Positions 4,481-34,977 of a DNA stretch of 64,000 nucleotides are shown here, piece by piece; positions within the stretch are counted from its first letter, which is position 1, and the number at the start of each line of letters is the position of its first letter. The position numbers were made by a program, and so were the translations under genes. The notes beneath the pieces were generated by a model, which saw nothing but the letters and a program-made list of their open reading frames with translations, was not told where the DNA came from and did no database searches. This DNA is from Opitutaceae bacterium (GTDB taxonomy: Bacteria; Verrucomicrobiota; Verrucomicrobiia; Opitutales; Opitutaceae). Location: assembly GCA_046346755.1 (NCBI GenBank), contig JAXMHM010000027.1:51297-115296 (forward strand). Reading direction: 5' to 3'.

Positions 4481-5347
4481 GTGAAACCGACGTCCTCCGA
4501 AGCGAGCCTCCGCGAAGCGTTGCTGACGTTGCTCGACGATCCTGCACCCGCGGTGCGGCGCGCGTTGCTGGCCCATTTTGCCGCGGATCCGCTGGAGTCG
4601 GCGCGGCTGCTCAAGGACCTGGCGGGGGGATCGAACCGCCTGCTCGCCTGGCATGCGCGCAGCTACCTGGAGGAGTTGAAACTGGCGGATCCCGTCGGCG
4701 ATTTTCGCGATTTCATCCGTTCGCTGAAGTACGAATTGGAGACGGGCTCCATGCTGATGGCCCGCACGGTGTATCCAACCCTCGATGTCGCCGCGTGCAG
4801 TGACCAGCTTGACCGGCTGGCCGCCCGCTGCCGCGAGCTCATCGCCGAACCCTGCAGCGCACGGGAGAAGTGCCGCGTCATCAACCGGGTCCTCTATCAC
4901 GACCATGGATTTCACGGGAACATCGAGCACTACACGGACCCGGAGAACAGCTTCCTGCACCGGGTGCTGGAGCGGCACAAGGGCATCCCGATTTCACTCT
5001 GCCTCGTGTACCTGCTGGTCGCCCAACGCTTGGGTCTGACGCTGGAACCCGTCGCCCCTCCGGGGCATTTTGTGCTCGGCTGCTTCAGCGACGACGCTCC
5101 GTTCTACATCGATGCCTTCGACGGAGGCGTGTTGCGCAGCACCGACGAGCTTTGCGCCCGGCTCGCCCAGCAACAGATTCCGGTCAAGGCGGCGGACCTG
5201 GCCCCATCCTCCATTCGGGAAATGCTCTGTCGCTGCTGCCGAAATCTGGTCAATCACTACGCGCGAGCCGGCGATTTTGACCGGTCCCGTCTCTTCGCCG
5301 GCTTCGTGGAGGAGTTCGAGGCGACCTACGCGAGGAATTCGGGTTGA
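4481..5347 (+). CDS. SirB1/transglutaminase-like family protein
   Basis: Central region (DPENSFLHRVLERHKGIPISLCLVYLLVAQRLGL...PGHF) is typical of the SirB1 N-terminal transglutaminase-like family. Confidence 0.65.
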   Translation: MKPTSSEASLREALLTLLDDPAPAVRRALLAHFAADPLESARLLKDLAGGSNRLLAWHARSYLEELKLADPVGDFRDFIRSLKYELETGSMLMARTVYPTLDVAACSDQLDRLAARCRELIAEPCSAREKCRVINRVLYHDHGFHGNIEHYTDPENSFLHRVLERHKGIPISLCLVYLLVAQRLGLTLEPVAPPGHFVLGCFSDDAPFYIDAFDGGVLRSTDELCARLAQQQIPVKAADLAPSSIREMLCRCCRNLVNHYARAGDFDRSRLFAGFVEEFEATYARNSG

Positions 5348-6317: not shown

Positions 6318-6420
6318 CCGACCGGCCGCAGGTCGCCTGTCCGCCAACCCGGCGTGCAGGATCGACTTATCGGCGGGCTCCGCTTGACTGCGGCCGAGCC
6401 GTCACCGGCCCTCCCTCTCC

Positions 6421-7332
6421 ATGGCCACCGCCTACACCGCCTTTTTCGCCGCCTATCCCTGGTTCCTGCCCACGGTGGCCGCCGTGCTCGGGGCGATCGT
6501 CGGCAGCTTCCTCAACGTGGTCATCTACCGGGTGCCCGCCGGCAAATCCATCGTCTCGCCGGGATCCCACTGCGCCTGCGGTCAAGCCATCGCGTGGTAC
6601 GACAACATTCCGATCCTGAGCTGGTTCATCCTGCGAGGGCGGGCCCGGTGCTGCGGGCGTCCGTACTCCATCCGTTATGCCCTGATCGAAATGCTCGTGG
6701 CCGGGCTCTTTCTGGTCAGCTGGCTCAGTTTCTCGCCGGCCAAGGCGGTGGTGGGCTGGGTGCTGCTCAGCGGCCTGGTGTGCGCCACCTTCATCGATCT
6801 CGACCACATGATCATCCCCGACGTCTTCACCATCGGCGGCGGGTTGGTCGGGGTGGCGCTCTCCCTCCTTGTCCCCGCGCTGCACGGGTTCGGGGGCGAC
6901 CTGTGGGTGGCGGACGTCGTCCGGTCGGGCGTGGCGTCCCTCAAGGGTCTGCTCATCGGTTCCGGACTGGTGCTGTGGATTGCCCTGGTCGCCGAGGCCG
7001 TGCTCAAGAAGGAGGCAATGGGGTTTGGCGACGTCAAATTCGTCGGGGCCATCGGCGCCTTCTGTGGCTGGCAGGGTGCGGTCTGCAGTATTTTTGGCGG
7101 TGCGGTCGTCGGCACGCTCTGGGTCGCAATCGCCGTGCTGTGGAAACGCATCGGCGGCGCCAACGCACAGTCCCTCGCCCCGGCCGAAACCCCCGACGGC
7201 AAACCGGCTGATCTCGGTTTCGGGGTGCACGTGCCCTTCGGACCGATGCTCGCGGTCGCGGCCCTGCTCTATTTTCTCGTGGCCCACCGGTGGGTCGACC
7301 CCTACTTCGCGCAATTCGCCAGTCTCTTCTAA
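6421..7332 (+). CDS. prepilin peptidase (A24 family, type IV leader peptidase/N-methyltransferase)
   Basis: Cys-rich N-terminal segment (CxxC...CC), GFGDVKF catalytic-Asp motif, polytopic membrane protein. Confidence 0.9.
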   Translation: MATAYTAFFAAYPWFLPTVAAVLGAIVGSFLNVVIYRVPAGKSIVSPGSHCACGQAIAWYDNIPILSWFILRGRARCCGRPYSIRYALIEMLVAGLFLVSWLSFSPAKAVVGWVLLSGLVCATFIDLDHMIIPDVFTIGGGLVGVALSLLVPALHGFGGDLWVADVVRSGVASLKGLLIGSGLVLWIALVAEAVLKKEAMGFGDVKFVGAIGAFCGWQGAVCSIFGGAVVGTLWVAIAVLWKRIGGANAQSLAPAETPDGKPADLGFGVHVPFGPMLAVAALLYFLVAHRWVDPYFAQFASLF

Positions 7333-7335
7333 ACC

Positions 7336-7372
7336 GGCCGGCAGGCGCCCTTCCACAGGGCGCGCGCCGGCC
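7336..7372. terminator. strong GC hairpin between convergent genes
   Basis: GGCCGGC-ag-GCGCCC-ttccaca-GGGCGC-gc-GCCGGCC gives 13 bp with a 2x2 internal loop. U-tracts are weak on both strands. Confidence 0.5.
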
Positions 7373-7387
7373 CGCGTCACTCCGAAC

Positions 7388-10300
7388 TCACCACTCGTAG
7401 ACTTCGATCAGGGCCACCCCGGTGGTTTCACCCACCCCGGATACCTTGGCCGAATAGGCGCCGGGCTGCAGGGTGCGCACAATCACGGCATCCTTGCTGC
7501 CTGCGGCCAGCGGAAACGCTCCGGCGCCCCGTCCGTCGTCGGTGTCCCAATTGTCATTGGTCGCCACCTTTTCGTCCCCTCGGTACAGCTCCAACGTGGG
7601 ATCAGCCAGCACGCCCGCGACTCCAAAGGTGCCAAGGGTGGGTCCCACCGCACGGACAAGGATGCGCCGCGGTCCATCGCCAACAATGACAAACCCGGCG
7701 ATCAGGACTTCACCGCCGGTACCCACCTGGCTGCGGGCCGACACATTCACCAGCCGCGGCCCGCCGTCGCTCGTGGGCGGATCGAGGTCATAGAGTTCCA
7801 CCAAGGCCACGCCGGGTTCGGCCGTGTCCAGCTTGGCTGAATACGCACCGGGAAACACCGGGGTGACCAGCGCCGCGTCCTTGGATCCCGGCGGGAGCGC
7901 GAAAGCTCCCACCGACAGGAAGCGCGCCGCGTCGGCCACAAGCCAGTTGTCATTGCGATCAAGCACCTGCGACGAGGAACCAATCACCTCCAACCGGGGA
8001 TTCGGAACCGTGCCAGGCACCCCAAACGCTGCCAGCGCCGGCCCGATCCCGCGGATGAGCAAACTCTTGGGGCCCTGCTGCACGGAAAAACCCACGATCA
8101 GGGTCCGATCACCCTGTCCCGCCGAGGACCGCACCGAGAGGTTTGCGAGGCGACTCGCATTCCCCGCCGGCAAGGGCGCTCCGTCGACGATCACGGTGGC
8201 ACCTTCGCTCGAAAGCGATCCCGTGGAGTCGGTCACCACCACCGTGTAGACACCGCTCTGGCTGCTCTGGAGATTGTTCAGGACCAAGGTGGAACTTGTG
8301 GCGCCCGGGATGGGTACACCGTTGTTTCTCCATTGGTAGCGCAGGGTGTCCGCGCCGGCCGCGGCCGTCGCCAGAGTCACGCTGCCACCAGCCGAAACCC
8401 GGGCCGGCCGCGGCTGCAGCGAGAAACGCAGCGGTCGGTCCACCGGCGAACCGGTGCGACGGCTGTTGTGACGGAACATGGGCCAGGCGCTGCTGGCCTC
8501 GTCGAGATCCAGCCGGATCGCATAGAGGCGGAAGTCGCCTCCACCGAAGTACAACATGCCACCATGAATCAGAGGGGACGACCTCACCTGTTGCGCGGTG
8601 TAGTAGGTGCGCCGCAGGGTGCCATCGCTGTTCAGCGCCACCAGGGTGCCGTCGAGCGTGCCAATGTAGATCGAACCGTCTGAGGCCACCGCGGGGGACG
8701 AGGTGCGAATTTCCGCCGCCACCTTGGTCGCCCAGCGCAGGGTGCCATCCGGATTGAGGGCCACGACTTTGCCGTCATAGGTGCCGAAATACACGGTGCC
8801 GTTCTCACCCAAGGCAGGGGACGAGGACGTGCCGGCTTCGAGGGCATACTGCCACTTGAGCGTGCCGTCCGGATTGACCGCAACAAACCGGCCCGTGAGG
8901 GTGCCGAGATAAAGGACTCCCGAGTTATCAATGGCGGGTGAAGTGTAAACCTCGCCACCAACATCGAGCGTCCACTTGACCACCCCGGCGGGGGTGTAAG
9001 CCCGGAGGATGCGGTCGGTCGAGGCAATGTAGACGGTGCCGTCGCGAGCCACGGTGGGCGAGGTGTAGGACTCGCCAAACAAGCCCACCAGCCACTTCCG
9101 GGTCCCGTCCGGGTTGATGGCATGCAAGGGTCCGTTTGTGCCCCGGGCATAGATTGTACCATCGGGACCGATGGCCGGCGACCCCTCGACCGCGCCGGTC
9201 ACCGTGTAACTCCACTTCACCGCTCCGTCCGCGGTGATGGACTCAACCCGGCCCGCGGAGTCGACCACAATCAGGGTCCCATCCGGCGCTGCGGCCGCCG
9301 ACGCATAGGTACCGTATCCAAACAATATATCCGACCAGAGCATTTCGCCAAGTGCGTTGACCGCGGCAACGCCCCCGAAATAGTCCACAAAGAGCGCCCC
9401 GCCCCCCGGGTGCGCCACCGGCGAGGAATAAACCGGGCCGTAGACGACCGACTGCCACTCGCTGTCGATCAGAGAAAAGATGAAGTTCCCACCCGGGCCC
9501 ACCGAATCCACCAGAAAATAATAGGTCCGACCTTCAATCGCGTCGAACGTCACCATCGGGTCGTAGATCACGCCCTGCGCGTCGTCGTCGCTGTCGAGCT
9601 CCACCAGCGTTTTCAGGCTCGTTCCCGAGTAGACTCCGAGAACACTGTCCATATCGTCACTGTAGATCGAGGCCTGGAAGCGCCGCGACTTCGGGGCCAC
9701 CCACTTGTACCAGACGGAGCGCCCGGAGGCCGTTTCAACCACCACGGGTTCGCCGCTCTCCGGGGAGGCTCCGCGTGAGTTTCCCGCCACCCGGAAACTC
9801 AGGCCGCTGACCACGGCAGCGGAGGAGAAGCTGTCATTGGTCAGAGGAATGGTGAGGTTGAGGATCACCAGCCCACCCGGAGCCGTGCGGGACTCGACCG
9901 CAATGGCGTAGGTGGTGCCTTTGATCGCGTTGATCGTCACCTGGCTGGTGACCAGGTCGCCATCATTGTCATTCGCAGCCACCTGGGTGAGCGCCGCGAT
10001 ATTGTTACCCGTGTAGACGGCCAGGCGCGTATCCACGGCGCTGCCCAGGGTGTCGATCCGGTAGGTTGCGGTGTCCGGGGCGTTCCACACCCACCAGACC
10101 GAACCGCCCCCCTCGGACGGTGCGGCGTGCTGCGGTTCATTCGACTGCCGGAGCGCGCCGAACGTGGAGCCGCGGGCGGAGACATAGCTGCCCCAGAGGA
10201 TGCCGGCCTCGCTGGTGCCGTCGTTGAAGGGGCGGGTCGTGGCGTCGAGTGCCCGGGAGACATTGAGACGGCCGCCGGTGTGGACCAGGGTTTGCAGCGC

Positions 10301-11623
10301 GGCCTTGACCTCCGCTCCGCGCAGGAGTCGGTTGACGGTGTGGGAAGGCAGATCGCTGGGAAACTGGGCGCACAGGAGGGCGACCGCCCCGCTGACGTGG
10401 GCGGCGGCAAAGGAGCTGCCCGAAACCGTGGCCAGGGGCGTCTCCGCACTCATGCCCAGGGTTCGGATGGCGACACCCGGGGCCGCCAGGTCGACATTGC
10501 CGCTTCCGTAGTTACTATTCAAAGACAATTGGTCATTGCGAGTTGACGCGGCCACGGCCACCACGTTTTCAATCAGGTGGCTCGCCGGATAGACCGGGAA
10601 AAGCGCGTTGTCGAACCCACCATTGCCGGCCGAGGCCACCACCAGGACACCGGCGTCGCGCAGCCGCTGGATCACCTCGAATTCAGCCTGCGAGTATTCG
10701 CTGAAGCCATAACTGGCGTTGATGACCTTCGCCCCCTTGGAGAGCGCATAGTGCATGCACTCGATGGCATCGGACACCGTGCCGGTGGTCGCCGAAGCCC
10801 GGAATTTCAGGGGCATAAGGCTCGCTTTCCAGGAGACCCCGGCCACTCCCAGGTTGTTGTTGCCCACGGCCCCGATGATGCCTGCCACCGCCGTGCCATG
10901 TCCCTCTCCTTGCGTCTCATTCGGATCGCCACTGCCGGGCTGGCCTTGCGGCACGAGGGCATTGATCCCGTGCACGTCGTCGATGTAGCCATTGCCATCA
11001 TCGTCCACCCCGTTGGTCTCCTTGCCGTTGCCGGATTCGCCTGGATTCGTCCACAGGTTCGCGGCGAGGTCGGGGTGGGCAAGATAAGCGCCTGAGTCAA
11101 TGATCGCCACAACCACCGACGACGAATCCGTTCGAACATCCCACGTCTCGGGGCCATCGATGTCGGCATCAAATCCTCCCTGATTCTGGCCGAGGTTGCT
11201 CAGCGCCCATTGCGCGCCCGAGCTGAACTCGGGGTCGTTCGGCACCCGGTGCGCGACGGTGAGTTGGTCCTTTTCGACGTAGGCGTAGCGTCCCGACGCA
11301 CGCAGGCGCTGGACAAAGGCCTCTGGAGACTCCCCTTCCGGCACCCGGATCACCTGCAACCCGCCGAATTGTTCATACTGACGCACCACGGCAAGGGCGC
11401 CCAGCCCGTCAACCCGCATGGCCCGGGACGGGGGGACTTCGCCACTCCGCGGCCGCGCCAGGACGACGGACGGTTGGTAATCCATGGTGCGACGAACCGG
11501 CTTTGCCGCGTGGTCGGGCGGGCGGCTCCATTCCCGCAGATCGCCCTCGCCCTGAGCGAGGACGGCGCACGCACCGAGGCTAAAGCAAAGAAAGCCAACA
11601 AATCGCATAAGCAAAAGCTTCAA
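7388..11623 (-). CDS. secreted multidomain S8 (subtilisin-family) serine protease, 1411 aa
   Basis: Signal peptide, propeptide-like region and an S8 domain with triad contexts AIIDSG (D176), HGTAVAG (H242) and SGSSFAAAH (S404). These are followed by two NDxF...GEP...SVWYxW-type beta-sandwich domains and PQQ/BamB-like propeller repeats (DGT.Y.. x about 8). Next come an Ig-like domain (LRYQWRNNG...GVYTVVV) and two C-terminal repeats. Confidence 0.9.
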   Translation of the reverse strand: MKLLLMRFVGFLCFSLGACAVLAQGEGDLREWSRPPDHAAKPVRRTMDYQPSVVLARPRSGEVPPSRAMRVDGLGALAVVRQYEQFGGLQVIRVPEGESPEAFVQRLRASGRYAYVEKDQLTVAHRVPNDPEFSSGAQWALSNLGQNQGGFDADIDGPETWDVRTDSSSVVVAIIDSGAYLAHPDLAANLWTNPGESGNGKETNGVDDDGNGYIDDVHGINALVPQGQPGSGDPNETQGEGHGTAVAGIIGAVGNNNLGVAGVSWKASLMPLKFRASATTGTVSDAIECMHYALSKGAKVINASYGFSEYSQAEFEVIQRLRDAGVLVVASAGNGGFDNALFPVYPASHLIENVVAVAASTRNDQLSLNSNYGSGNVDLAAPGVAIRTLGMSAETPLATVSGSSFAAAHVSGAVALLCAQFPSDLPSHTVNRLLRGAEVKAALQTLVHTGGRLNVSRALDATTRPFNDGTSEAGILWGSYVSARGSTFGALRQSNEPQHAAPSEGGGSVWWVWNAPDTATYRIDTLGSAVDTRLAVYTGNNIAALTQVAANDNDGDLVTSQVTINAIKGTTYAIAVESRTAPGGLVILNLTIPLTNDSFSSAAVVSGLSFRVAGNSRGASPESGEPVVVETASGRSVWYKWVAPKSRRFQASIYSDDMDSVLGVYSGTSLKTLVELDSDDDAQGVIYDPMVTFDAIEGRTYYFLVDSVGPGGNFIFSLIDSEWQSVVYGPVYSSPVAHPGGGALFVDYFGGVAAVNALGEMLWSDILFGYGTYASAAAAPDGTLIVVDSAGRVESITADGAVKWSYTVTGAVEGSPAIGPDGTIYARGTNGPLHAINPDGTRKWLVGLFGESYTSPTVARDGTVYIASTDRILRAYTPAGVVKWTLDVGGEVYTSPAIDNSGVLYLGTLTGRFVAVNPDGTLKWQYALEAGTSSSPALGENGTVYFGTYDGKVVALNPDGTLRWATKVAAEIRTSSPAVASDGSIYIGTLDGTLVALNSDGTLRRTYYTAQQVRSSPLIHGGMLYFGGGDFRLYAIRLDLDEASSAWPMFRHNSRRTGSPVDRPLRFSLQPRPARVSAGGSVTLATAAAGADTLRYQWRNNGVPIPGATSSTLVLNNLQSSQSGVYTVVVTDSTGSLSSEGATVIVDGAPLPAGNASRLANLSVRSSAGQGDRTLIVGFSVQQGPKSLLIRGIGPALAAFGVPGTVPNPRLEVIGSSSQVLDRNDNWLVADAARFLSVGAFALPPGSKDAALVTPVFPGAYSAKLDTAEPGVALVELYDLDPPTSDGGPRLVNVSARSQVGTGGEVLIAGFVIVGDGPRRILVRAVGPTLGTFGVAGVLADPTLELYRGDEKVATNDNWDTDDGRGAGAFPLAAGSKDAVIVRTLQPGAYSAKVSGVGETTGVALIEVYEW
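7391..8152 (-). repeat. tandem duplication of a 122-132 aa C-terminal domain inside the S8 protease gene
   Basis: Residues 1158-1289 and 1290-1411 align: RLxNxSxRSxxGxG...LIxGFxx...LxRxxGPxLxxFGVxG...P.LE...NDNW...GSKDA...PGAYSAK...GVALxExY. Confidence 0.7.
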
Positions 11624-11714
11624 TCGTGCAGGAAAGCCCGCGCAAGCTCGTAAACGACTGCAACTCAGCGTTCATCAACGCCGTCCACGGGGTGACCTCT
11701 CCTGCCTCGCGAGG

Positions 11715-12620
11715 TCAGGTCTGCGCTCGCACTCGATGGCGGGTTCGAAACACGCACCGGGAGCGCAAGGACTCCAGTCCAGGATGCTCGACTCCGCGGC
11801 CGGTGAAACGCACCAATCCAAACCGAACCGCCACCCCCACCAGCTGACCTCGATGCTGAAGTCCCAGCTTGAGGTGCAGCCGCTTTCGGTAGGCGTGCAC
11901 CGCCTGCGCGCTCAAGCCGATCCGATCAGCGGCCGCCTCGTCGTCGCAGCCTTCTCCGAGGATGGCCATGACGTACAGTTCAACCGGGCTGAGCAGTTTG
12001 GGCACGTGGGAGAGCGGCCCCTGGCCGTGGAGCACGTCGAGGCAGGAACCACTCCAATATGCACCCCCGCATCCAACCTGCCGGATGGCCTCCACCAGCC
12101 GGGCCACCCCATCGACCTGGGTATCGATTGCGCCGTGCGCCCCGAGCGTGCGCAGCGTGTGGATAACCATGGGAGCCGCCTGTTCGACCACCACGAGGAG
12201 GCGTTTACAGCGACCGAGCCGCCGGGACTGAGCCAGCAGATCAAGGACGTCGCCGTCCGCCAGGCTCGGCGAGGCCACCACCAAGTCCACTTCGGAGGTG
12301 GACAAACGCCGGCGCAGGCCCGCCACCTCGGTTTCCCGCCAAGACACCGCATGCGAGACACAGCTCAGCAGCGCCCGTTGCACCGCATCCGCCGCCAGGT
12401 GGTCGCTCACCGCAACCCCGACCGTGTGCACATGACTCAAGGTGGCCGGATCGCAGCACTCCGACTCCGATGGCAAGGGCGCCAGCAAGACTTCAGAGTT
12501 GGCATCCCGCTCGGACTCCAATCGAGGCCCAATTCCCCGCACTCCCGTTTCACGCGCGGCTTCAAAGGCGCGGTTTCCGTCTCTTTCACGCTCGGTTGAT
12601 CGCGGGAATGTGAGTGGCAT
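11715..12620 (-). CDS. LuxR/FixJ-type transcriptional regulator with a degenerate (pseudo-)receiver domain
   Basis: C-terminal LuxR HTH (LSPVELYVMAILGEGCDDEAAADRIGLSAQAVHAYRKRLHLKLG). The receiver-like region lacks the phospho-acceptor Asp (DLVVASPSL). The start is uncertain: the N-terminal ~60 aa is low complexity with no internal Met. Confidence 0.75.
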   Translation of the reverse strand: MPLTFPRSTERERDGNRAFEAARETGVRGIGPRLESERDANSEVLLAPLPSESECCDPATLSHVHTVGVAVSDHLAADAVQRALLSCVSHAVSWRETEVAGLRRRLSTSEVDLVVASPSLADGDVLDLLAQSRRLGRCKRLLVVVEQAAPMVIHTLRTLGAHGAIDTQVDGVARLVEAIRQVGCGGAYWSGSCLDVLHGQGPLSHVPKLLSPVELYVMAILGEGCDDEAAADRIGLSAQAVHAYRKRLHLKLGLQHRGQLVGVAVRFGLVRFTGRGVEHPGLESLRSRCVFRTRHRVRAQT

Positions 12621-12648
12621 GCGTTATTTGCCATATCATTGCGTTATT
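12621..12648. promoter_or_regulatory. direct repeat GCGTTATT-N12-GCGTTATT abutting the annotated LuxR start codon
   Basis: Exact 8-bp direct repeat at 12621-12628 and 12641-12648 (20-bp period) in a locally AT-rich patch. Confidence 0.3.
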
Positions 12649-12788
12649 CAAGCAAGGTCATTTCGCGTGGTTTTCCCTTTTTCCCGACCCTACGGGATCC
12701 CGGGAAATTGAGTCAGGGTTGGTCTCGTGGCCGTTCCCGCCCACCGGAGGAGTCCGGAACGAGTCTTTGCCGGCCTTTCGAACCCAGT

Positions 12789-12932
12789 CTAGAAGAGACG
12801 GGAGATCGATTCCTTGATCGCCGGCCAGTGGGTGAAAACGAGGTGGGTCGCATACCAGCCTGCCAAACCCGCGACAAGCCAGACCCAGGGGATCGCGCGC
12901 ATCAGGGAACGCAACGAGGAGAGGAAGTTCAT
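12789..12932 (-). CDS. 47-aa single-pass membrane peptide (candidate immunity/accessory protein)
   Basis: Hand translation: MNFLSSLRSLMRAIPWVWLVAGLAGWYATHLVFTHWPAIKESISRLF. It has one clear TM helix and lies directly downstream of the peptide pair. No SD sequence, and it follows a strong hairpin, so coding status is uncertain. Confidence 0.3.
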   Translation of the reverse strand: MNFLSSLRSLMRAIPWVWLVAGLAGWYATHLVFTHWPAIKESISRLF

Positions 12933-12943
12933 CGGCACGGGGT

Positions 12944-12972
12944 GCGCGGACGGCCGAGATCGCCGTCCGCGC
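12944..12972 (-). terminator. perfect 11-bp GC stem-loop between peptide B and the small membrane ORF (attenuator/stabiliser-type; no U-tract)
   Basis: GCGCGGACGGC-N7-GCCGTCCGCGC, starting 9 nt after the peptide B stop codon. Confidence 0.45.
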
Positions 12973-12980
12973 GACGAGGG

Positions 12981-13160
12981 TTAGTCCTTGAGTGCATAGG
13001 CCGCCGCCTCGAAGAGCGCCACCGTCCCGGCCAGGGGACCGAAGGCGACGTTCTCCAAGACGGACTTGCAGTAGGCCCCGATGAATTGTCCGAGATCGAC
13101 CACGGCGGATTCTCCTCCGGCCTGGACGAGTGCAAGGTCTGCAGCGGCGAGGTGTTTCAT
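12981..13160 (-). CDS. double-glycine-leader peptide B, 59 aa (bacteriocin/pheromone-like precursor)
   Basis: Not in the ORF track (<60 aa); hand translated as MKHLAAADLALVQAGG/ESAVVDLGQFIGAYCKSVLENVAFGPLAGTVALFEAAAYALKD. GAGGAA lies 7 nt upstream of the ATG. Two GxxxG motifs are present. Confidence 0.6.
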   Translation of the reverse strand: MKHLAAADLALVQAGGESAVVDLGQFIGAYCKSVLENVAFGPLAGTVALFEAAAYALKD

Positions 13161-13175
13161 GGGTGATTCCTCGCG

Positions 13176-13352
13176 TCAGACATTATTCCAGCCGTCCGCC
13201 ACCGCGTCTTTGAACTGACCCCAGTTGTCGTAGACGTTTTTGGCCACGTAGCCAAACGAGGCGATCGCCACCGAGATGAGGATCGCGGTGCCGCTGATCG
13301 GTTCAACGCCGCCCTGAATCGAGGCGGCTTCCTGCTGTGTCATGGTTTTCAT
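13176..13352 (-). CDS. double-glycine-leader peptide A, 58 aa (bacteriocin/pheromone-like precursor)
   Basis: Internal ATG of ORF 13176..13436: MKTMTQQEAASIQGG/VEPISGTAILISVAIASFGYVAKNVYDNWGQFKDAVADGWNNV. E at -8, I at -4, GG at -2/-1. The longer ORF-track N-terminus is Arg-rich and implausible. Confidence 0.65.
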   Translation of the reverse strand: MKTMTQQEAASIQGGVEPISGTAILISVAIASFGYVAKNVYDNWGQFKDAVADGWNNV

Positions 13353-13666
13353 ACTGTGTTCTGCTGTTGGGATGGCCCGCAGTCGCCGGTCGACCACTGC
13401 GGTCGTCCGATTGCGGGAAGGGGGGAACGGCGCCACCCAAGCGGCGCACCTCGGTGTACTTCGAAGGGAAACGCATTCGGCGTCGGCTGCGGTGACCCGA
13501 GGGTTGGTTCATGGGTTCAGGCATGAGGGGGGAGACAGGAGGCCGAAAGGCGGGGATTGTCCCAATTTATGGCCCCTTCTGCCCTTTTTAGGGCCAGGCC
13601 TTCACGGCCCGACACGTCCGATTGTCGCTTGGCCTTTTTACGGACGTCACCCAGGTTGGAGGATCT

Positions 13667-14323
13667 ATGCCCAGCGAGTCCTTTCAGATTCCCATCGCCT
13701 TCGATCTCGGCGCCACGGTCACCTTTGCGGTGACCGGTGCGATGGCCGCCCGGCGACGCGGTTACGACATCGTGGGCCTCTTCTTCCTCGCGCTCGCTTC
13801 CGGGCTCGGAGGGGGTCTGATCCGAGATGGTCTGTTTATCCAACAGGGTCCTCCGGCCTTGATGACGGATGGACGATACCTATGGGCCGTGCTGGTCGGC
13901 GGCGCCGCCGGGGTCCTCCTCGGTGAGCGACTCACCCGTCTGGCCCGCGCCATCGCCCTCATCGACGCGGTGGGCCTGGGAGCCTACGCCGTCGTGGGTG
14001 TGCAGAAATCCCTCGCCGCCGGACTCGCCGTTCCCGCCGCCATCCTGGTGGGCGTGATCAATGCCGCGGGGGGTGGAGTGCTGCGCGATGTGCTCACACG
14101 CGAGGAGCCCCTGGTGTTCAAACCGGGTCAGTTCTACGTGCTCATCGCCCTGGCCGGAGCGATCGTCTTTGTGGTGCTCTGTCAGCAAACCTACCTGACG
14201 ACCACCGCCGCCGCGCTCATCGCGATTGCCCTGACGTTTCTCCTGCGCACCCTGACCATTGTCTTCAACTGGAAGACGAACGCCCTCGACGCCCCACCTC
14301 CCTCCCCTCGTCCCCCGACCTGA
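13667..14323 (+). CDS. trimeric intracellular cation channel (TRIC/UPF0126, YadS-like) family membrane protein
   Basis: Two UPF0126 repeats with glycine-rich motifs (ASGLGGGLIRD and NAAGGGVLRD). Start set at the ATG at 13667. Confidence 0.85.
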   Translation: MPSESFQIPIAFDLGATVTFAVTGAMAARRRGYDIVGLFFLALASGLGGGLIRDGLFIQQGPPALMTDGRYLWAVLVGGAAGVLLGERLTRLARAIALIDAVGLGAYAVVGVQKSLAAGLAVPAAILVGVINAAGGGVLRDVLTREEPLVFKPGQFYVLIALAGAIVFVVLCQQTYLTTTAAALIAIALTFLLRTLTIVFNWKTNALDAPPPSPRPPT

Positions 14324-32511: not shown

Positions 32512-34977
32512 ATGATTTCCCGACCGCATCGCCCACTTGCTGCCTGCGTAGCTTATACGCTGCTGCACATAGGGTTGCAGATTCTGGCTCAGAATTTCGA
32601 AGTCGCCCCGGGGATTTCGGTCTGGTACCCGCCCGCCGGCTTGGCTCTGGGACTGCTGATCCTTCTTGGGCCGCGATTTGCCCCGCTGATCTTCGTCGTC
32701 AACGCCGTGGTGGCCATCCCTACGACGAGGTCCGAGGCACTTTGGGCTCCGCTGCTCTTTCCTTTTCTCATCACCGCCTACTACACCGGTCTGGCATGGT
32801 GGATCCGGCGCGTTCATGGTCCCCGTCTGCTTCCCGGGTCCTTGCGCCAAACGCTGACGTTTACCGCTGCGGTCATCCTGGGTCCAGCAGGCATGGCTTT
32901 GGTGGGAAGTGGCGCGGCCGTTCTCACGGGACTCACCCCCGCTTCCGGGATGGGTTGGGCGACCGTCCTGTGGTGGGTGGGTGACTCCAGTGGTTTGCTC
33001 ACGGTCCTTCCTCCTATCCTCGTCTTTGCCGCCCCTTGGCTGCGCGTCGCCGGACCTTCGGAACGGAATCAGGTGCGCCGAGCAAATATCGCCTCGGCGG
33101 GATTTCTGTTCGCCTGCGTCGCGCTGATCCTCTCCCTCGCCCTGGTTTTCACCCTCGACTCCAGTTTTCATTTCCAGGCCCTTTCACTGTGCTTCCTGCC
33201 TCTCATCTGGATCTGCCTGCGCCATGGATTGCCGGGCGCAACCCTGGCCACGCTCCTCGTGACCATGGCGGGACTCGCTGGACTGCATTTCACTCCCGGT
33301 ACCCGCGAACAGATTGTGGGTTTCCTGTTTTTTGAACTCACCTTTACCGGGGTCGGCCTGGGACTCGGTTCGGCGGTCAGTCGTCGCAACGAAGCCGAGG
33401 CTGAGCTCGCCACCAACCAGGCCCGCCTCGATCGCGTCGTGTCCGGAGCACGACTGGGACTCTGGGACTGGGAGGTGGGCAGCGACCGCGTCGCCTACAA
33501 TCTTCGCTGCGCGGAACTGCTGGGTTCGCCCCACGCCCCGCTCGCACCCACGCGCGCAGCGTGGGAGGACGCGATTCATCCCGACGATCGCGACGAAGTG
33601 GCGTCCGCCCTGCGCGGTCACCTCAATGGACTCCGCTCAATCTTCGAGGCTGAATACCGTATCCGAACTTTGGATAAGCGTGTGCGTTGGATTCACACCC
33701 GGGGATCGGTGGTGGAGCGCGACGAACTCGGCCGGCCCCTGCTGGTGTCGGGCACGCACCTCGATGTCACCCACCAAAAGCAGATCGAAGCGGACAACCT
33801 GGCCAACGAGCGCCAGCTCATGGAGGTGCAGAAATCGGAGAGCCTTGGCATGCTCGCTGGCGGTGTGGCGCATGACTTCAACAACCTGCTCACCGCGATC
33901 CTCGGGAACGCCCAGCTGGCCAAACTCGACATTCCGCCGAACACGCCGCCCTTCGAGGCGCTTGGCCAGATTGAAACGGCCTCGAATCGCGCCGCGCGGC
34001 TCTGCCAGCAGATGATGGCGTACGCCGGTCGCAGCCCCCTCAATCCGGTCGATCTCAATCTCAATGACCTGATCTCCGATACCCTGCCCCTGATCCAGGC
34101 GACGGTGGGCAAGAAGGCGACGCCCGAACTCAAGCTGGGGCGCCCTCTCTCTCGATTCCGGGGTGAACCTTCACAAGTGCAGCACGTGCTGATGAACCTC
34201 GTCATCAACGCCTCCGAAGCCATCGGCAACCAAGCCGGACGCATCGAGCTGCGCACCGCCATGTTGAGCCTCGATGGGGAACGGCTGACGACACTGTTCC
34301 AGGCCCCGAGCCTGCCCACCGGCGACTATGTGCTGCTGGAGGTCAGTGACACCGGCGCGGGCATCGCCCCCGACCTGCTGACGCGTATTTTCGAGCCCTT
34401 TTTCACCACGAAACCGGCGGGCCCCGGACTGGGTCTCGCCGCCGTGCTGGGCATCGTGAGGTCCCACGGGGGAGCCCTGCGCGTCACCAGCGAACTCGGC
34501 CGCGGAAGCACTTTCCAACTCATCTTTCCCGCCCTGCGATCCAGCGCCCCGCCCGATCGCGCGCCTGCCCGCCCGATCGAGACCCACTGGACTGGCTCCG
34601 GGCTGGTGCTGGTGATCGACGACGAGGAGCCTGTGCGCAAGGTGATCGCCGGCATGGTCAAGAGCCTGGGGTTCACCCCCGTCCTGGCCACCGACGGAAT
34701 CGAGGGGGTGGACGCTTTTCGCCGTCACGCGGGACGCCTGCGCGCGGTGATGCTTGATCTGGCGATGCCCAGGATGGACGGCTCCGAAGCGCTGCGGGCC
34801 ATGCAAGGGATCGATGCCCGCGTTCCGGTCCTGCTCATGAGCGGATTTTCCAACAAACTCACCCTCGACCAGTTTGCCCAGGCGCGGCCGTCGGGACTCC
34901 TCGCCAAACCCTTCAGTCGAAGTTCGCTGCAGCAACAGCTCCAGGCCGCGATGGTCGCCTACCCCCTGCGGGCCTGA
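32512..34977 (+). CDS. hybrid sensor histidine kinase/response regulator with MASE1-like membrane sensor and PAS domain
   Basis: Polytopic N-terminus, PAS (EAEYRIRTLDKRVRWIHTRG), H-box (GGVAHDFNNLL), N/G boxes, and a C-terminal receiver (LVIDDEEP...DLAMPRMDG). Confidence 0.9.
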   Translation: MISRPHRPLAACVAYTLLHIGLQILAQNFEVAPGISVWYPPAGLALGLLILLGPRFAPLIFVVNAVVAIPTTRSEALWAPLLFPFLITAYYTGLAWWIRRVHGPRLLPGSLRQTLTFTAAVILGPAGMALVGSGAAVLTGLTPASGMGWATVLWWVGDSSGLLTVLPPILVFAAPWLRVAGPSERNQVRRANIASAGFLFACVALILSLALVFTLDSSFHFQALSLCFLPLIWICLRHGLPGATLATLLVTMAGLAGLHFTPGTREQIVGFLFFELTFTGVGLGLGSAVSRRNEAEAELATNQARLDRVVSGARLGLWDWEVGSDRVAYNLRCAELLGSPHAPLAPTRAAWEDAIHPDDRDEVASALRGHLNGLRSIFEAEYRIRTLDKRVRWIHTRGSVVERDELGRPLLVSGTHLDVTHQKQIEADNLANERQLMEVQKSESLGMLAGGVAHDFNNLLTAILGNAQLAKLDIPPNTPPFEALGQIETASNRAARLCQQMMAYAGRSPLNPVDLNLNDLISDTLPLIQATVGKKATPELKLGRPLSRFRGEPSQVQHVLMNLVINASEAIGNQAGRIELRTAMLSLDGERLTTLFQAPSLPTGDYVLLEVSDTGAGIAPDLLTRIFEPFFTTKPAGPGLGLAAVLGIVRSHGGALRVTSELGRGSTFQLIFPALRSSAPPDRAPARPIETHWTGSGLVLVIDDEEPVRKVIAGMVKSLGFTPVLATDGIEGVDAFRRHAGRLRAVMLDLAMPRMDGSEALRAMQGIDARVPVLLMSGFSNKLTLDQFAQARPSGLLAKPFSRSSLQQQLQAAMVAYPLRA

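What the first reader, a model, noticed from the sequence alone, without database searches (positions are those of the whole stretch)
12981..13352. Tandem double-glycine-leader peptide pair (class IIb bacteriocin / peptide-pheromone-like), one below the ORF-track cutoff
Both peptides are on the minus strand.

- Peptide A (13352->13176) reads MKTMTQQEAASIQGG | VEPISGTAILISVAIASFGYVAKNVYDNWGQFKDAVADGWNNV.
- Peptide B (13160->12981) begins 15 nt later, after a spacer carrying GAGGAA 7 nt before its ATG. It is 59 aa, so it is absent from the track, and I translated it by hand: MKHLAAADLALVQAGG | ESAVVDLGQFIGAYCKSVLENVAFGPLAGTVALFEAAAYALKD.

Both have a 15-16 aa leader ending in GG, with an acidic residue at -8/-9 and a hydrophobic residue at -4/-5. 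Both would release a 43-aa amphipathic or hydrophobic core. B carries two GxxxG motifs (GQFIG, GPLAG) and A has an AxxxSxxxA small-residue face.

Two adjacent GG-leader genes with GxxxG-type cores are the defining layout of two-peptide class IIb bacteriocins and of GG-leader pheromones, which are known mainly from Firmicutes. I am not aware of a characterised example in this kind of high-GC Gram-negative (PVC-like) background.

The cleavage site in B is ambiguous by one residue (QAG|G versus QAGG|).
Basis: partly seen in the sequence, partly recalled or inferred. Interest (0 to 1): 0.8.

Follow-up and report, generated by a model that had tools for sequence, protein, structure and literature searches.

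The report
Exporter-less two-peptide bacteriocin-like cassette in Opitutaceae
Two real, conserved small genes in a soil/water Verrucomicrobium (family Opitutaceae) encode secretion-leader peptides of the bacteriocin type, followed by a small membrane-protein gene and a regulator gene; this is a new but fairly ordinary member of a known kind of bacterial peptide-weapon or peptide-signal locus, and here its export pump is not nearby.

Summary
Peptide A (13352→13176, 58 aa) and peptide B (13160→12981, 59 aa) are genes under purifying selection (dN/dS about 0.07-0.3) in about ten distinct Opitutaceae or Verrucomicrobiota loci.

- A and B.
- A GC-rich hairpin.
- C, a 47-aa cationic membrane protein.
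- R, a NarL/GerE regulator with Ser in place of the phospho-acceptor Asp.

A passes NCBIfam TIGR03949 (class IIb bacteriocin, lactobin A/cerein 7B family; 23.2 bits against a cutoff of 21.5). B and C match no curated model.

Homologous A-B-C triads elsewhere, including a Lacunisphaera (Opitutaceae) MAG, lie between an HlyD/AprE-type membrane-fusion protein and a C39-peptidase ABC exporter. That ties the family to double-glycine processing and export.

The window has no ABC ATPase anywhere in its 64 kb, so export must be in trans or has been lost.

The most likely reading is an orphan two-peptide class II bacteriocin (microcin-like) operon with an immunity gene. Unusual features are anionic mature peptides, a fixed chromosomal position and an atypical regulator, which leave room for a signalling role.

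It is a new member of a known kind, of moderate interest.

The parts
13176..13352 (-). pepA: a 58-aa prepeptide. It has a 15-aa GG leader (MKTMTQQEAASIQGG) and a 43-aa core. The core is one hydrophobic helix followed by the conserved C-terminal motif WGxFK[DE]AVADGWNNV.
   Evidence: - The sequence is shown.
- TIGR03949 scores 23.2 bits against a cutoff of 21.5.
- The gene is conserved with dN/dS of 0.07-0.44.
- An exhaustive profile search found 13 representative relatives.
- AF2 predicts helices at residues 6-12, 21-42 and 44-56, with low confidence at the GG pair.
12981..13160 (-). pepB: a 59-aa prepeptide. It has a 15- or 16-aa leader (MKHLAAADLALVQAG|G or ...QAGG|) and a core carrying the family-wide D-x-G-Q-F-I-G motif. 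The core ends in an acidic amphipathic helix.
   Evidence: - The sequence is shown.
- The gene is conserved with dN/dS of 0.07-0.27.
- A profile of the orphan-type B sequences finds the B-like ORFs next to PCATs in L029, L033, L034 and L027.
- NCBI annotates it as hypothetical protein U1F61_19700.
- AF2 predicts helices at residues 2-15, 17-40 and 42-58.
12944..12972 (-). A perfect 11-bp GC-rich hairpin with a 7-nt loop, lying between the stop codon of pepB and the start of pepC. It is probably an intra-operon attenuator or an RNA-stabilising 3' structure.
   Evidence: RNA folding gives -28.6 kcal/mol for the 61-nt intergenic segment folded. An equivalent perfect 11-14-bp stem occurs at the same place in all 7 loci tested (window, L001, L007, L009, L017, L029, L034), with different sequences and z-scores of -2.1 to -6.3. 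There is no T-run after the stem in the window, so the terminator scan does not call it.
12789..12932 (-). pepC: a 47-aa cationic single-pass membrane protein (MNFLSS...GWYATHLVFTHWPAIKESISRLF). It is the candidate immunity or accessory protein. An alternative GTG start lies at 12938.
   Evidence: - The ORF is listed.
- It is conserved in relatives, with W18, W28, L33, W38, I41 and K42 invariant.
- Its pI is 8.8-12.
- A profile of the orphan-type C sequences finds the ORF just upstream of the PCAT in L034, L029, L033 and L028 at E of 7e-11 to 5e-8.
11715..12620 (-). R: a 301-aa NarL/FixJ-type regulator with a receiver-like domain and a GerE/LuxR helix-turn-helix. Ser replaces the phospho-acceptor Asp, so it is an atypical orphan response regulator. 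It is found with A-B-C wherever the contig reaches far enough, in this clade.
   Evidence: - Pfam GerE scores 27.1 bits against a cutoff of 23.5, and NCBIfam gives only sub-threshold response-regulator hits.
- An alignment to DevR (PDB 3c3w) puts Ser of the query motif 'VVASPSL' opposite Asp of 'AVLDVRL' in DevR; that this Asp is DevR's phospho-acceptor (D54) is from my own knowledge.
- R is present downstream of the A-B cassette in L001-L005, L007-L009, L011, L015-L017, L019, L023, L024 and L039.
13554..13565 (-). A conserved 12-mer, TTGGGACAATCC, in the divergent promoter region about 200 nt upstream of pepA. Its role is unknown. It is listed as a possible regulatory site only.
   Evidence: It is an exact match in 9 loci of the close clade. 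It is not over-represented elsewhere in the window. The sigma-70 consensus scan finds no promoter in 11500-13800.

Best explanation
The window carries an operon-like cassette, pepA-pepB-hairpin-pepC, followed by the regulator gene R. It belongs to an uncharacterised family of double-glycine-leader two-peptide systems of Gram-negative bacteria.

Proposed mechanism. The steps are inferred unless marked as shown.
1. A and B are translated as prepeptides. An amphipathic leader helix ends in GG (shown: sequence, conservation and AF2 helices).
2. A C39-peptidase ABC transporter, with an HlyD/AprE-type membrane-fusion protein and an outer-membrane channel, recognises the leaders. It cuts after the GG and exports two helical peptides of about 43 aa. 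In this genome that exporter must be encoded elsewhere and act in trans, as with orphan bacteriocin operons served by a shared transporter. It is shown that homologous A-B-C triads in L027, L029 and a Lacunisphaera MAG (L034) lie directly between such an MFP and PCAT.
3. Outside the cell, the hydrophobic A and the GxxxG-bearing B act together on the membrane of related bacteria.
4. The small cationic membrane protein C protects the producer.
5. The conserved hairpin after pepB keeps A and B transcripts abundant relative to C.
6. R is a phosphorylation-independent NarL-type regulator and controls the cassette.

In short, this is an orphan two-peptide class II bacteriocin, or a two-peptide 'microcin', with an immunity gene.
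For: - Both genes are real and under purifying selection.
- A exceeds the TIGR03949 cutoff, and 12 of 19 family members hit that model.
- An exhaustive profile search finds 13 representatives sharing the GG leader and the YVAKDIYDNWGxFK core.
- Three independent locus types have the order (R)-MFP-A-B-C-PCAT: L027, L029-L032 and L034/L035 from Lacunisphaera sp. GCA_035549095.1.
- Homology of A, B and C across these locus types is supported by profiles built only from orphan-type sequences. A scores 38-58 bits, B 20-43 bits and C 29-38 bits among 1193 ORFs.
- Relatives of these PCATs are numerous (877 hits at E below 1e-60), and the only organism named by a source among them is Lacunisphaera sp., an Opitutaceae genus.
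- A second Lacunisphaera locus has other GG peptides.
- The hairpin between B and C is conserved in structure but not in sequence in 7 of 7 loci.
- C is a conserved cationic transmembrane peptide.
- AF2 gives a leader helix, a flexible GG and a two-helix core for both peptides.
- There is Gram-negative precedent. McbABCI of Moraxella comprises an MFP, a PCAT, a GG bacteriocin and an immunity gene (PMC2761928). Class II microcins are widespread (PMC12219008). About 28% of predicted class II precursors come from Gram-negative genomes (PMC12648112).
Against: - No ABC ATPase, C39 domain or MFP occurs in the 64-kb window or in the flanks, up to 10 kb each side, of the other orphan-type loci. An exporter in this genome is therefore assumed, not shown.
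- Mature A and B are anionic (pI 4.1-5.7) in every orphan-type member. The characterised class IIb peptides I compared, recalled from memory, are cationic.
- B's C-terminus has changed from the Gly-rich hydrophobic tail of exporter-linked homologues to an acidic amphipathic helix.
- The cassette sits at one fixed chromosomal site across relatives whose synonymous sites are saturated. That is less typical of strain-variable bacteriocins.
- The -7 leader position of A is A, T or S rather than a large hydrophobic residue.
- PF10439 and TIGR01847 are not reached.
- No activity data of any kind exist.
Confidence: 0.55

Rival explanations
1. The cassette is a domesticated signalling system. A and/or B are still processed and exported by an unlinked PCAT, but they act as GG-leader peptide pheromones (autoinducers). 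R, an atypical phosphorylation-independent NarL-type regulator, mediates their effect directly or indirectly. C would then be an accessory or receptor-associated membrane protein rather than an immunity protein.
For: - R accompanies A-B-C in the orphan-type loci whose contigs reach that far, and has lost the phospho-Asp.
- The cassette is vertically inherited at a fixed site under strong purifying selection.
- The mature peptides are anionic, and B has lost the Gly-rich membrane-type tail.
- The dedicated exporter has been uncoupled from the cassette.
- From my own knowledge, GG-leader pheromones such as ComC, BlpC and PlnA are a known sister use of the same export route, and some atypical response regulators bind small ligands.
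Against: - No histidine kinase is adjacent.
- Two co-conserved peptides plus a small transmembrane protein is the bacteriocin-plus-immunity layout.
- A still has a full hydrophobic helix that looks membrane-spanning.
- Exporter-linked homologues also have a NarL-type regulator nearby, so R is not specific to the orphan state.
- No regulatory repeat shared across all clades was found.
Confidence: 0.2
2. The exporter has been lost from these genomes. A, B and C are now retained as non-secreted small membrane or cytoplasmic proteins, and the GG 'leader' is an uncleaved relic. For example, they could form a small membrane-protein complex or a stress or toxin-like module controlled by R.
For: - No exporter is found in 64 kb or in any orphan-type flank.
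- The leader position -7 of A is degenerate, and B has A at -2 in one register.
- A and C each have one hydrophobic helix.
Against: - The GG pair and the leader pattern (M-12, E-8, I/V-4) remain invariant or conserved, with low pN, over saturated dS. That is hard to explain without continued recognition by a C39 domain.
- Opitutaceae MAGs (Lacunisphaera) do carry PCATs of the matching type.
Confidence: 0.15
3. A and B are substrates of the neighbouring A24 prepilin peptidase, that is, Flp- or pilin-like class III signal peptides cut after Gly.
For: - An A24_N_bact plus Peptidase_A24 gene lies a few kb downstream, on the other strand, in the loci that reach that far.
- A has a short polar N-terminus ending in G, followed by a hydrophobic helix.
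Against: - From my own knowledge, prepilins carry G|F/M-xxx-E and Flp pilins G|xxxxEY. A has GG|VEPIS, and B has no hydrophobic segment after the Gly.
- The peptidase is convergent and is separated from the cassette by a variable 4.2-kb S8 gene in some strains.
- Homologous triads are flanked by a PCAT and MFP, not by A24.
Confidence: 0.02

Closest known systems
Class IIb (two-peptide, unmodified) bacteriocins of Firmicutes. Examples are lactococcin G, plantaricin EF/JK and the lactobin A/cerein 7B family (NCBIfam TIGR03949).
   Same: - Two adjacent genes encode GG-leader prepeptides with helical cores of about 40-45 aa.
- B has a conserved GxxxG (GQFIG).
- A small membrane-protein gene lies directly downstream.
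- A passes the TIGR03949 cutoff.
- Some B-type relatives give sub-threshold hits to the lactococcin G-alpha model NF038035.
   Different: - The host is a diderm Verrucomicrobium.
- The mature peptides are anionic rather than cationic.
- B and C match no curated family.
- In relatives, export also needs a membrane-fusion protein.
- In the window the exporter is not linked.
- There are no activity data.
Class II microcins and Gram-negative GG-leader bacteriocins. Examples are colicin V/MccV with cvaABC-cvi (from my own knowledge) and Moraxella catarrhalis mcbABCI (PMC2761928). See also PMC12219008.
   Same: - In relatives L027, L029 and L034, a GG-leader peptide lies next to a PCAT and an HlyD-type MFP.
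- A tiny immunity-type ORF lies next to the structural gene.
- The host is Gram-negative.
   Different: - The examples named here have one structural peptide; this cassette has two co-conserved peptides.
- The window copy lacks the PCAT and MFP.
- The window copy is linked to an atypical NarL-type regulator.
- It is chromosomal and syntenic, not plasmid- or island-borne.
Orphan bacteriocin/immunity operons served in trans by one transporter, as in the blp and pln loci of streptococci and Lactiplantibacillus (from my own knowledge).
   Same: The structural and immunity genes have no transporter of their own, and a response-regulator gene lies close by.
   Different: Those loci are clustered within one regulon, with a histidine kinase, a response regulator and an inducing peptide. 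Here no kinase is adjacent, and the regulator lacks the phospho-acceptor.
GG-leader peptide pheromones: ComC/CSP, BlpC and PlnA (from my own knowledge).
   Same: They use the same leader type and the same export route, and they are linked to a transcription regulator.
   Different: They use a membrane histidine kinase and a LytTR-type response regulator, with a single peptide and no immunity-like gene. None of these features is seen here.

Membership tests
Double-glycine-leader (PCAT-substrate) prepeptides | An N-terminal leader of about 15-30 aa that ends in GG, GA or GS immediately before the core. | tested here: met
   A has ...SIQGG|VEPIS and B has ...VQAGG|ES. GG is invariant in the 19 A-type sequences, and all 12 B-type sequences keep a GG pair (one G invariant).
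Double-glycine-leader (PCAT-substrate) prepeptides | Leader helix with hydrophobic residues at -4, -7 and -12 and an acidic residue at -8 (from my own knowledge of the consensus). | tested here: inconclusive
   A has I-4, E-8 and M-12 but A, T or S at -7. B fits perfectly only if it is cut QAG|G, which puts Ala at -2. If it is cut QAGG|, the register shifts by one. Exporter-linked relatives fit the canonical pattern.
Double-glycine-leader (PCAT-substrate) prepeptides | A match to the leader model TIGR01847 (cutoff 15.7 bits). | tested here: not met
   Window A and B give no hit at E of 10 or below. Among relatives, 3 of 19 A-type sequences hit only weakly (best E 0.0033; bits not listed) and 2 of 12 B-type sequences score below the cutoff (13.4-13.9 bits).
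Double-glycine-leader (PCAT-substrate) prepeptides | A C39-peptidase ABC transporter, with an MFP in diderms, encoded with the peptides or elsewhere in the genome. | tested here: inconclusive
   No Walker A plus LSGGQ ORF and no C39 hit occur in the 64-kb window. A PCAT and MFP lie directly adjacent to homologous triads in L027, L029 and L034. The rest of this genome could not be searched.
Double-glycine-leader (PCAT-substrate) prepeptides | Leader removal and export of the core peptide. | not testable with these tools
   This needs LC-MS of supernatant or an in vitro C39 cleavage assay.
Class IIb bacteriocin, lactobin A/cerein 7B family (TIGR03949) | HMM score at or above the curated cutoff (21.5 bits). 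| tested here: met
   A scores 23.2 bits (E of 4.2e-5) over residues 2-34. B does not hit. The margin is small, and the match is mostly the leader plus the start of the core.
Pfam PF10439 Bacteriocin_IIc | Score at or above the gathering threshold (27.1 bits). | tested here: not met
   A scores 14.4 bits and B gives no hit.
Class IIb two-peptide bacteriocins (functional class) | Two adjacent prepeptide genes in one operon, followed by an immunity gene. | tested here: inconclusive
   The A-B-C gene order is conserved in every locus type examined, apart from L016, where no C-like ORF was found, and contigs too short to reach it. The immunity function of C is only inferred from its position, size and transmembrane character.
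Class IIb two-peptide bacteriocins (functional class) | GxxxG or small-xxx-small helix-helix motifs in both peptides. | tested here: inconclusive
   B's GQFIG is conserved family-wide. A in the window has only AxxxS/SxxxA in a variable segment, although several relatives have GxxxG there.
Class IIb two-peptide bacteriocins (functional class) | Cationic mature peptides. | tested here: not met
   Net charge is -1 to -5 and pI is 4.1-5.7 for all orphan-type A and B sequences.
Class IIb two-peptide bacteriocins (functional class) | Antimicrobial activity that requires both peptides. | not testable with these tools
   This needs a peptide assay.
Lactococcin G-alpha/enterocin 1071A family (NF038035) | HMM score at or above 37 bits. 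| tested here: not met
   Window B gives no hit. Two exporter-linked B relatives score 16.7 and 23.6 bits.
GG-leader pheromone three-component systems (ComCDE, BlpCHR, PlnABCD) | An adjacent histidine kinase plus a phosphorylatable response regulator. | tested here: not met
   No kinase lies next to the cassette in the window or in relatives. R has Ser at the phospho-Asp position.
Type IV prepilin/Flp substrates of A24 peptidases | G|[FM]xxxE or G|xxxxEY, followed by a hydrophobic helix. | tested here: not met
   A has GG|VEPIS. B has no hydrophobic segment after the Gly.

The most novel reading that the evidence does not exclude
In this Opitutaceae clade, an ancestral PCAT-linked two-peptide bacteriocin cassette has been uncoupled from its exporter. 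It has become fixed at one chromosomal site and paired with a phosphorylation-independent NarL-type regulator. Its peptides have been reshaped into acidic, more soluble forms. On this reading it has been re-used as a peptide-based cell-cell signalling (quorum-sensing) system in a Gram-negative PVC bacterium.
Probability: 0.15. Interest if true: 0.75.

Novelty: new member of a known kind. Interest (0 to 1): 0.4.

Why it matters
If correct, this extends two-peptide GG-leader bacteriocins, which are characterised almost only in Firmicutes, to Verrucomicrobiota. It also defines a conserved A-B-C gene triad (two prepeptides and a tiny membrane protein) found with PCAT/MFP exporters in diderm bacteria.

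That gives an entry point for studying competition or communication in Opitutaceae, which are abundant in soil, freshwater and wastewater. It also gives a natural comparison between exporter-linked and exporter-less copies of the same cassette.

The conceptual advance is modest. GG-leader peptides and PCATs are already known to be widespread in Gram-negative bacteria.

Tried and rejected
- **Exporter in the window.** Pfam scans of ten large ORFs and a six-frame motif scan for Walker A and LSGGQ found no ABC ATPase.
- **Exporter in this MAG.** I searched the protein database with two cassette-linked PCATs. There were 877 relatives, some named Lacunisphaera sp.. None carried this MAG's locus-tag prefix, and the cluster look-up returned no names.
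- **Further scans.** The three genomes that carry the cassette could therefore not be re-scanned for PCATs.
- **S8 subtilase (7388..11623) as the leader protease.** Rejected. It is absent from L004, which has the identical pepA, and from L007, L009 and L017.
- **A24 prepilin peptidase as the processing enzyme.** Rejected on motif grounds and because of the PCAT linkage.
- **Promoter and terminator consensus scans.** Nothing was found in 11500-13800.
- **Conserved upstream 12-mer.** It is confined to the close clade.
- **Paralogues in the window.** Profile searches for further A, B or C copies found none.
- **Literature.** Searches for double-glycine peptides or bacteriocins in Verrucomicrobia or Opitutaceae found nothing specific.
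- **AF2 models.** They show only helices at a mean pLDDT of 71. I did not use them for fold searches, because such small helical models give meaningless matches.

Full report
**Observation**

The mechanical ORF list also offers an 86-aa GTG-start version of A. Relatives share sequence only from MKTMT onward, so the 58-aa form is the gene.

**Are they genes?**

The protein database holds A at 100, 78, 59, 55 and 55% identity and B at 100 and 78% identity. NCBI names the 100% B entry 'hypothetical protein U1F61_19700 [Opitutaceae bacterium]'.

Fetching the contigs, plus one scan each of the genome and metagenome collections, gave about ten distinct loci. All come from Opitutaceae or Verrucomicrobiota MAGs or metagenomes. 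Only 3 of 185,579 species-representative genomes carry the cassette.

Both frames are intact everywhere. Nei-Gojobori estimates give pN of 0.02-0.30 against pS of 0.13-0.79, with dN/dS mostly 0.07-0.2.

Directly after B there is a perfect 11-bp GC hairpin (12944..12972). It is followed by a third conserved small gene, C (12932..12789). C is a 47-aa cationic single-pass membrane protein with invariant Trp, Ile and Lys positions.

Next comes R (12620..11715), a NarL/GerE-type regulator. Aligned to DevR, its receiver-like domain has Ser where the phospho-acceptor Asp should be.

A-B-C-R is kept as a unit in every orphan-type locus long enough to show it, except L016, where no C-like ORF was found. 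It always lies between the same housekeeping neighbours:
- On one side, a PTR2-type MFS transporter and, in most loci, PALP-enzyme and PF03458 membrane-protein genes.
- On the other side, the A24 prepilin peptidase and shikimate dehydrogenase.

The 1411-aa S8 subtilase next to R in the window is present in only some strains. It is therefore not part of the unit.

**Family assignment**

A reaches the curated cutoff of NCBIfam TIGR03949, 'class IIb bacteriocin, lactobin A/cerein 7B family', with 23.2 bits against 21.5. It falls short of Pfam PF10439, with 14.4 bits against 27.1. B and C hit nothing.

An exhaustive HMMER search of 1.84 billion representative proteins with a five-sequence A profile found only 13 proteins at E of 1e-3 or below. 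All are 51-98 aa. All have a GG leader, a hydrophobic helix and the core YVAKDIYDNWGxFK. Twelve of the 19 A-type sequences hit TIGR03949. Two B-type relatives give sub-threshold hits to the lactococcin G-alpha model.

**The decisive context**

The distant A-type genes sit in complete export loci.
- L027 has, in order: a NarL-type regulator, an HlyD-like protein, an extra GG peptide, A, B, C, and a 714-aa Peptidase_C39/ABC_membrane/ABC_tran protein.
- L029-L032 have: a canonical response regulator, an AprE-type MFP, A, B, C and a PCAT.
- L034/L035, from Lacunisphaera sp. GCA_035549095.1 (an Opitutaceae genus), have: an MFP, A, B, C and a PCAT.

Profiles built only from the exporter-less Opitutaceae sequences retrieve precisely these neighbouring ORFs among 1193 candidates. 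A scores 38-58 bits, B 20-43 bits and C 29-38 bits. The triad is therefore one homologous unit.

The hairpin between B and C recurs in all seven loci folded, with unrelated stem sequences. This points to selection on the RNA structure. From my own knowledge, it also fits the classical arrangement in which bacteriocin structural genes are followed by a leaky terminator or stabiliser ahead of the immunity gene.

AF2 models have a mean pLDDT of 71. They show a leader helix, a low-confidence GG hinge and two core helices in both peptides.

**What is missing here**

The window has no ABC ATPase at all, and none of its large ORFs carries a C39 domain. The flanks of up to 10 kb on each side of the other orphan-type loci have none either.

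PCATs of the matching type are common. There were 877 hits, and the hits that carry an organism name are labelled Lacunisphaera sp. A second Lacunisphaera locus has other GG peptides. Export in trans is therefore plausible, but I could not show a PCAT in this particular genome.

**Unusual features of the orphan-type cassette**
- Both mature peptides are anionic in all members (pI 4.1-5.7), whereas the class IIb peptides I recalled for comparison are cationic.
- B's tail is an acidic amphipathic helix rather than the Gly-rich hydrophobic tail of exporter-linked homologues.
- R has lost the phospho-acceptor. L029's regulator keeps Asp and L027's has Gly.
- The cassette appears vertically inherited at one site, although synonymous sites are saturated.

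B's cleavage site stays ambiguous. Homology and the -4/-7/-12 register favour QAG|G, while the rule that -2 is Gly favours QAGG|.

**Interpretation**

The best-supported reading (about 0.55) is an orphan two-peptide class II bacteriocin operon, microcin-like in its export. It would have an immunity gene and an adjacent atypical regulator, and it would be processed and exported by an unlinked PCAT-MFP system.

The rivals are:
- Re-use as a GG-leader signalling pair acting through R (about 0.2).
- Retention as non-secreted small proteins after loss of the exporter (about 0.15).
- Prepilin-peptidase substrates (about 0.02).

**Comparison with what is known**

GG-leader bacteriocins with a PCAT, an MFP and an immunity gene are established in Gram-negative bacteria. 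Examples are McbABCI (PMC2761928) and the class II microcins, which are now reported as widespread (PMC12219008). Large-scale mining attributes about 28% of predicted class II precursors to Gram-negative genomes (PMC12648112).

I found no paper on such peptides in Verrucomicrobia or Opitutaceae.

I therefore rate this as a new member of a known kind. The exporter-less, regulator-linked, acidic variant is the part worth an experiment.

Noticed in passing
window 7388..11623 (-): This 1411-aa S8 subtilase carries beta-propeller (PQQ-like) and Ig-like regions. It lies between R and the A24 peptidase gene only in some loci (L001-L003, L005, and apparently the window). It is absent from L004, which has the identical pepA, and from L007, L009 and L017. 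This is a presence/absence polymorphism of about 4.2 kb.
   Followed up: partly
window 13554..13565 (-): The 12-mer TTGGGACAATCC lies about 200 nt upstream of pepA, in the divergent promoter region shared with the PF03458 membrane-protein gene (13622..14323 +). It is exactly conserved in 9 close loci but not in more distant ones. Its role is unknown.
   Followed up: partly
L027 9734..9922 (+): A third GG-leader ORF (62 aa, ...ELASIGGG...) lies upstream of the A-type gene in the exporter-linked locus. Such loci can therefore carry extra GG peptides.
   Followed up: no
L036 3346..11493 (Lacunisphaera sp. GCA_029945855.1): This is a second kind of MFP-to-PCAT locus in Opitutaceae. It has two unrelated GG-leader ORFs (4685..4864 and 6755..6964), a 578-aa protein with no Pfam hit on record, a TPR protein and an adjacent Response_reg-HATPase_c gene. 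GG-leader/PCAT systems appear to be diverse in this family.
   Followed up: partly
window 32512..34977 (+): A hybrid sensor kinase (MASE1-PAS-HisKA-HATPase_c-REC) lies 20 kb from the cassette. No link to the cassette has been shown.
   Followed up: no
window 6367..7380 (-): An ORF lies here at the position where related loci have a type IV prepilin peptidase gene (A24_N_bact + Peptidase_A24), convergent with the cassette and conserved next to shikimate dehydrogenase. The window ORF itself was not scanned. I considered it as a processing enzyme and rejected it.
   Followed up: yes
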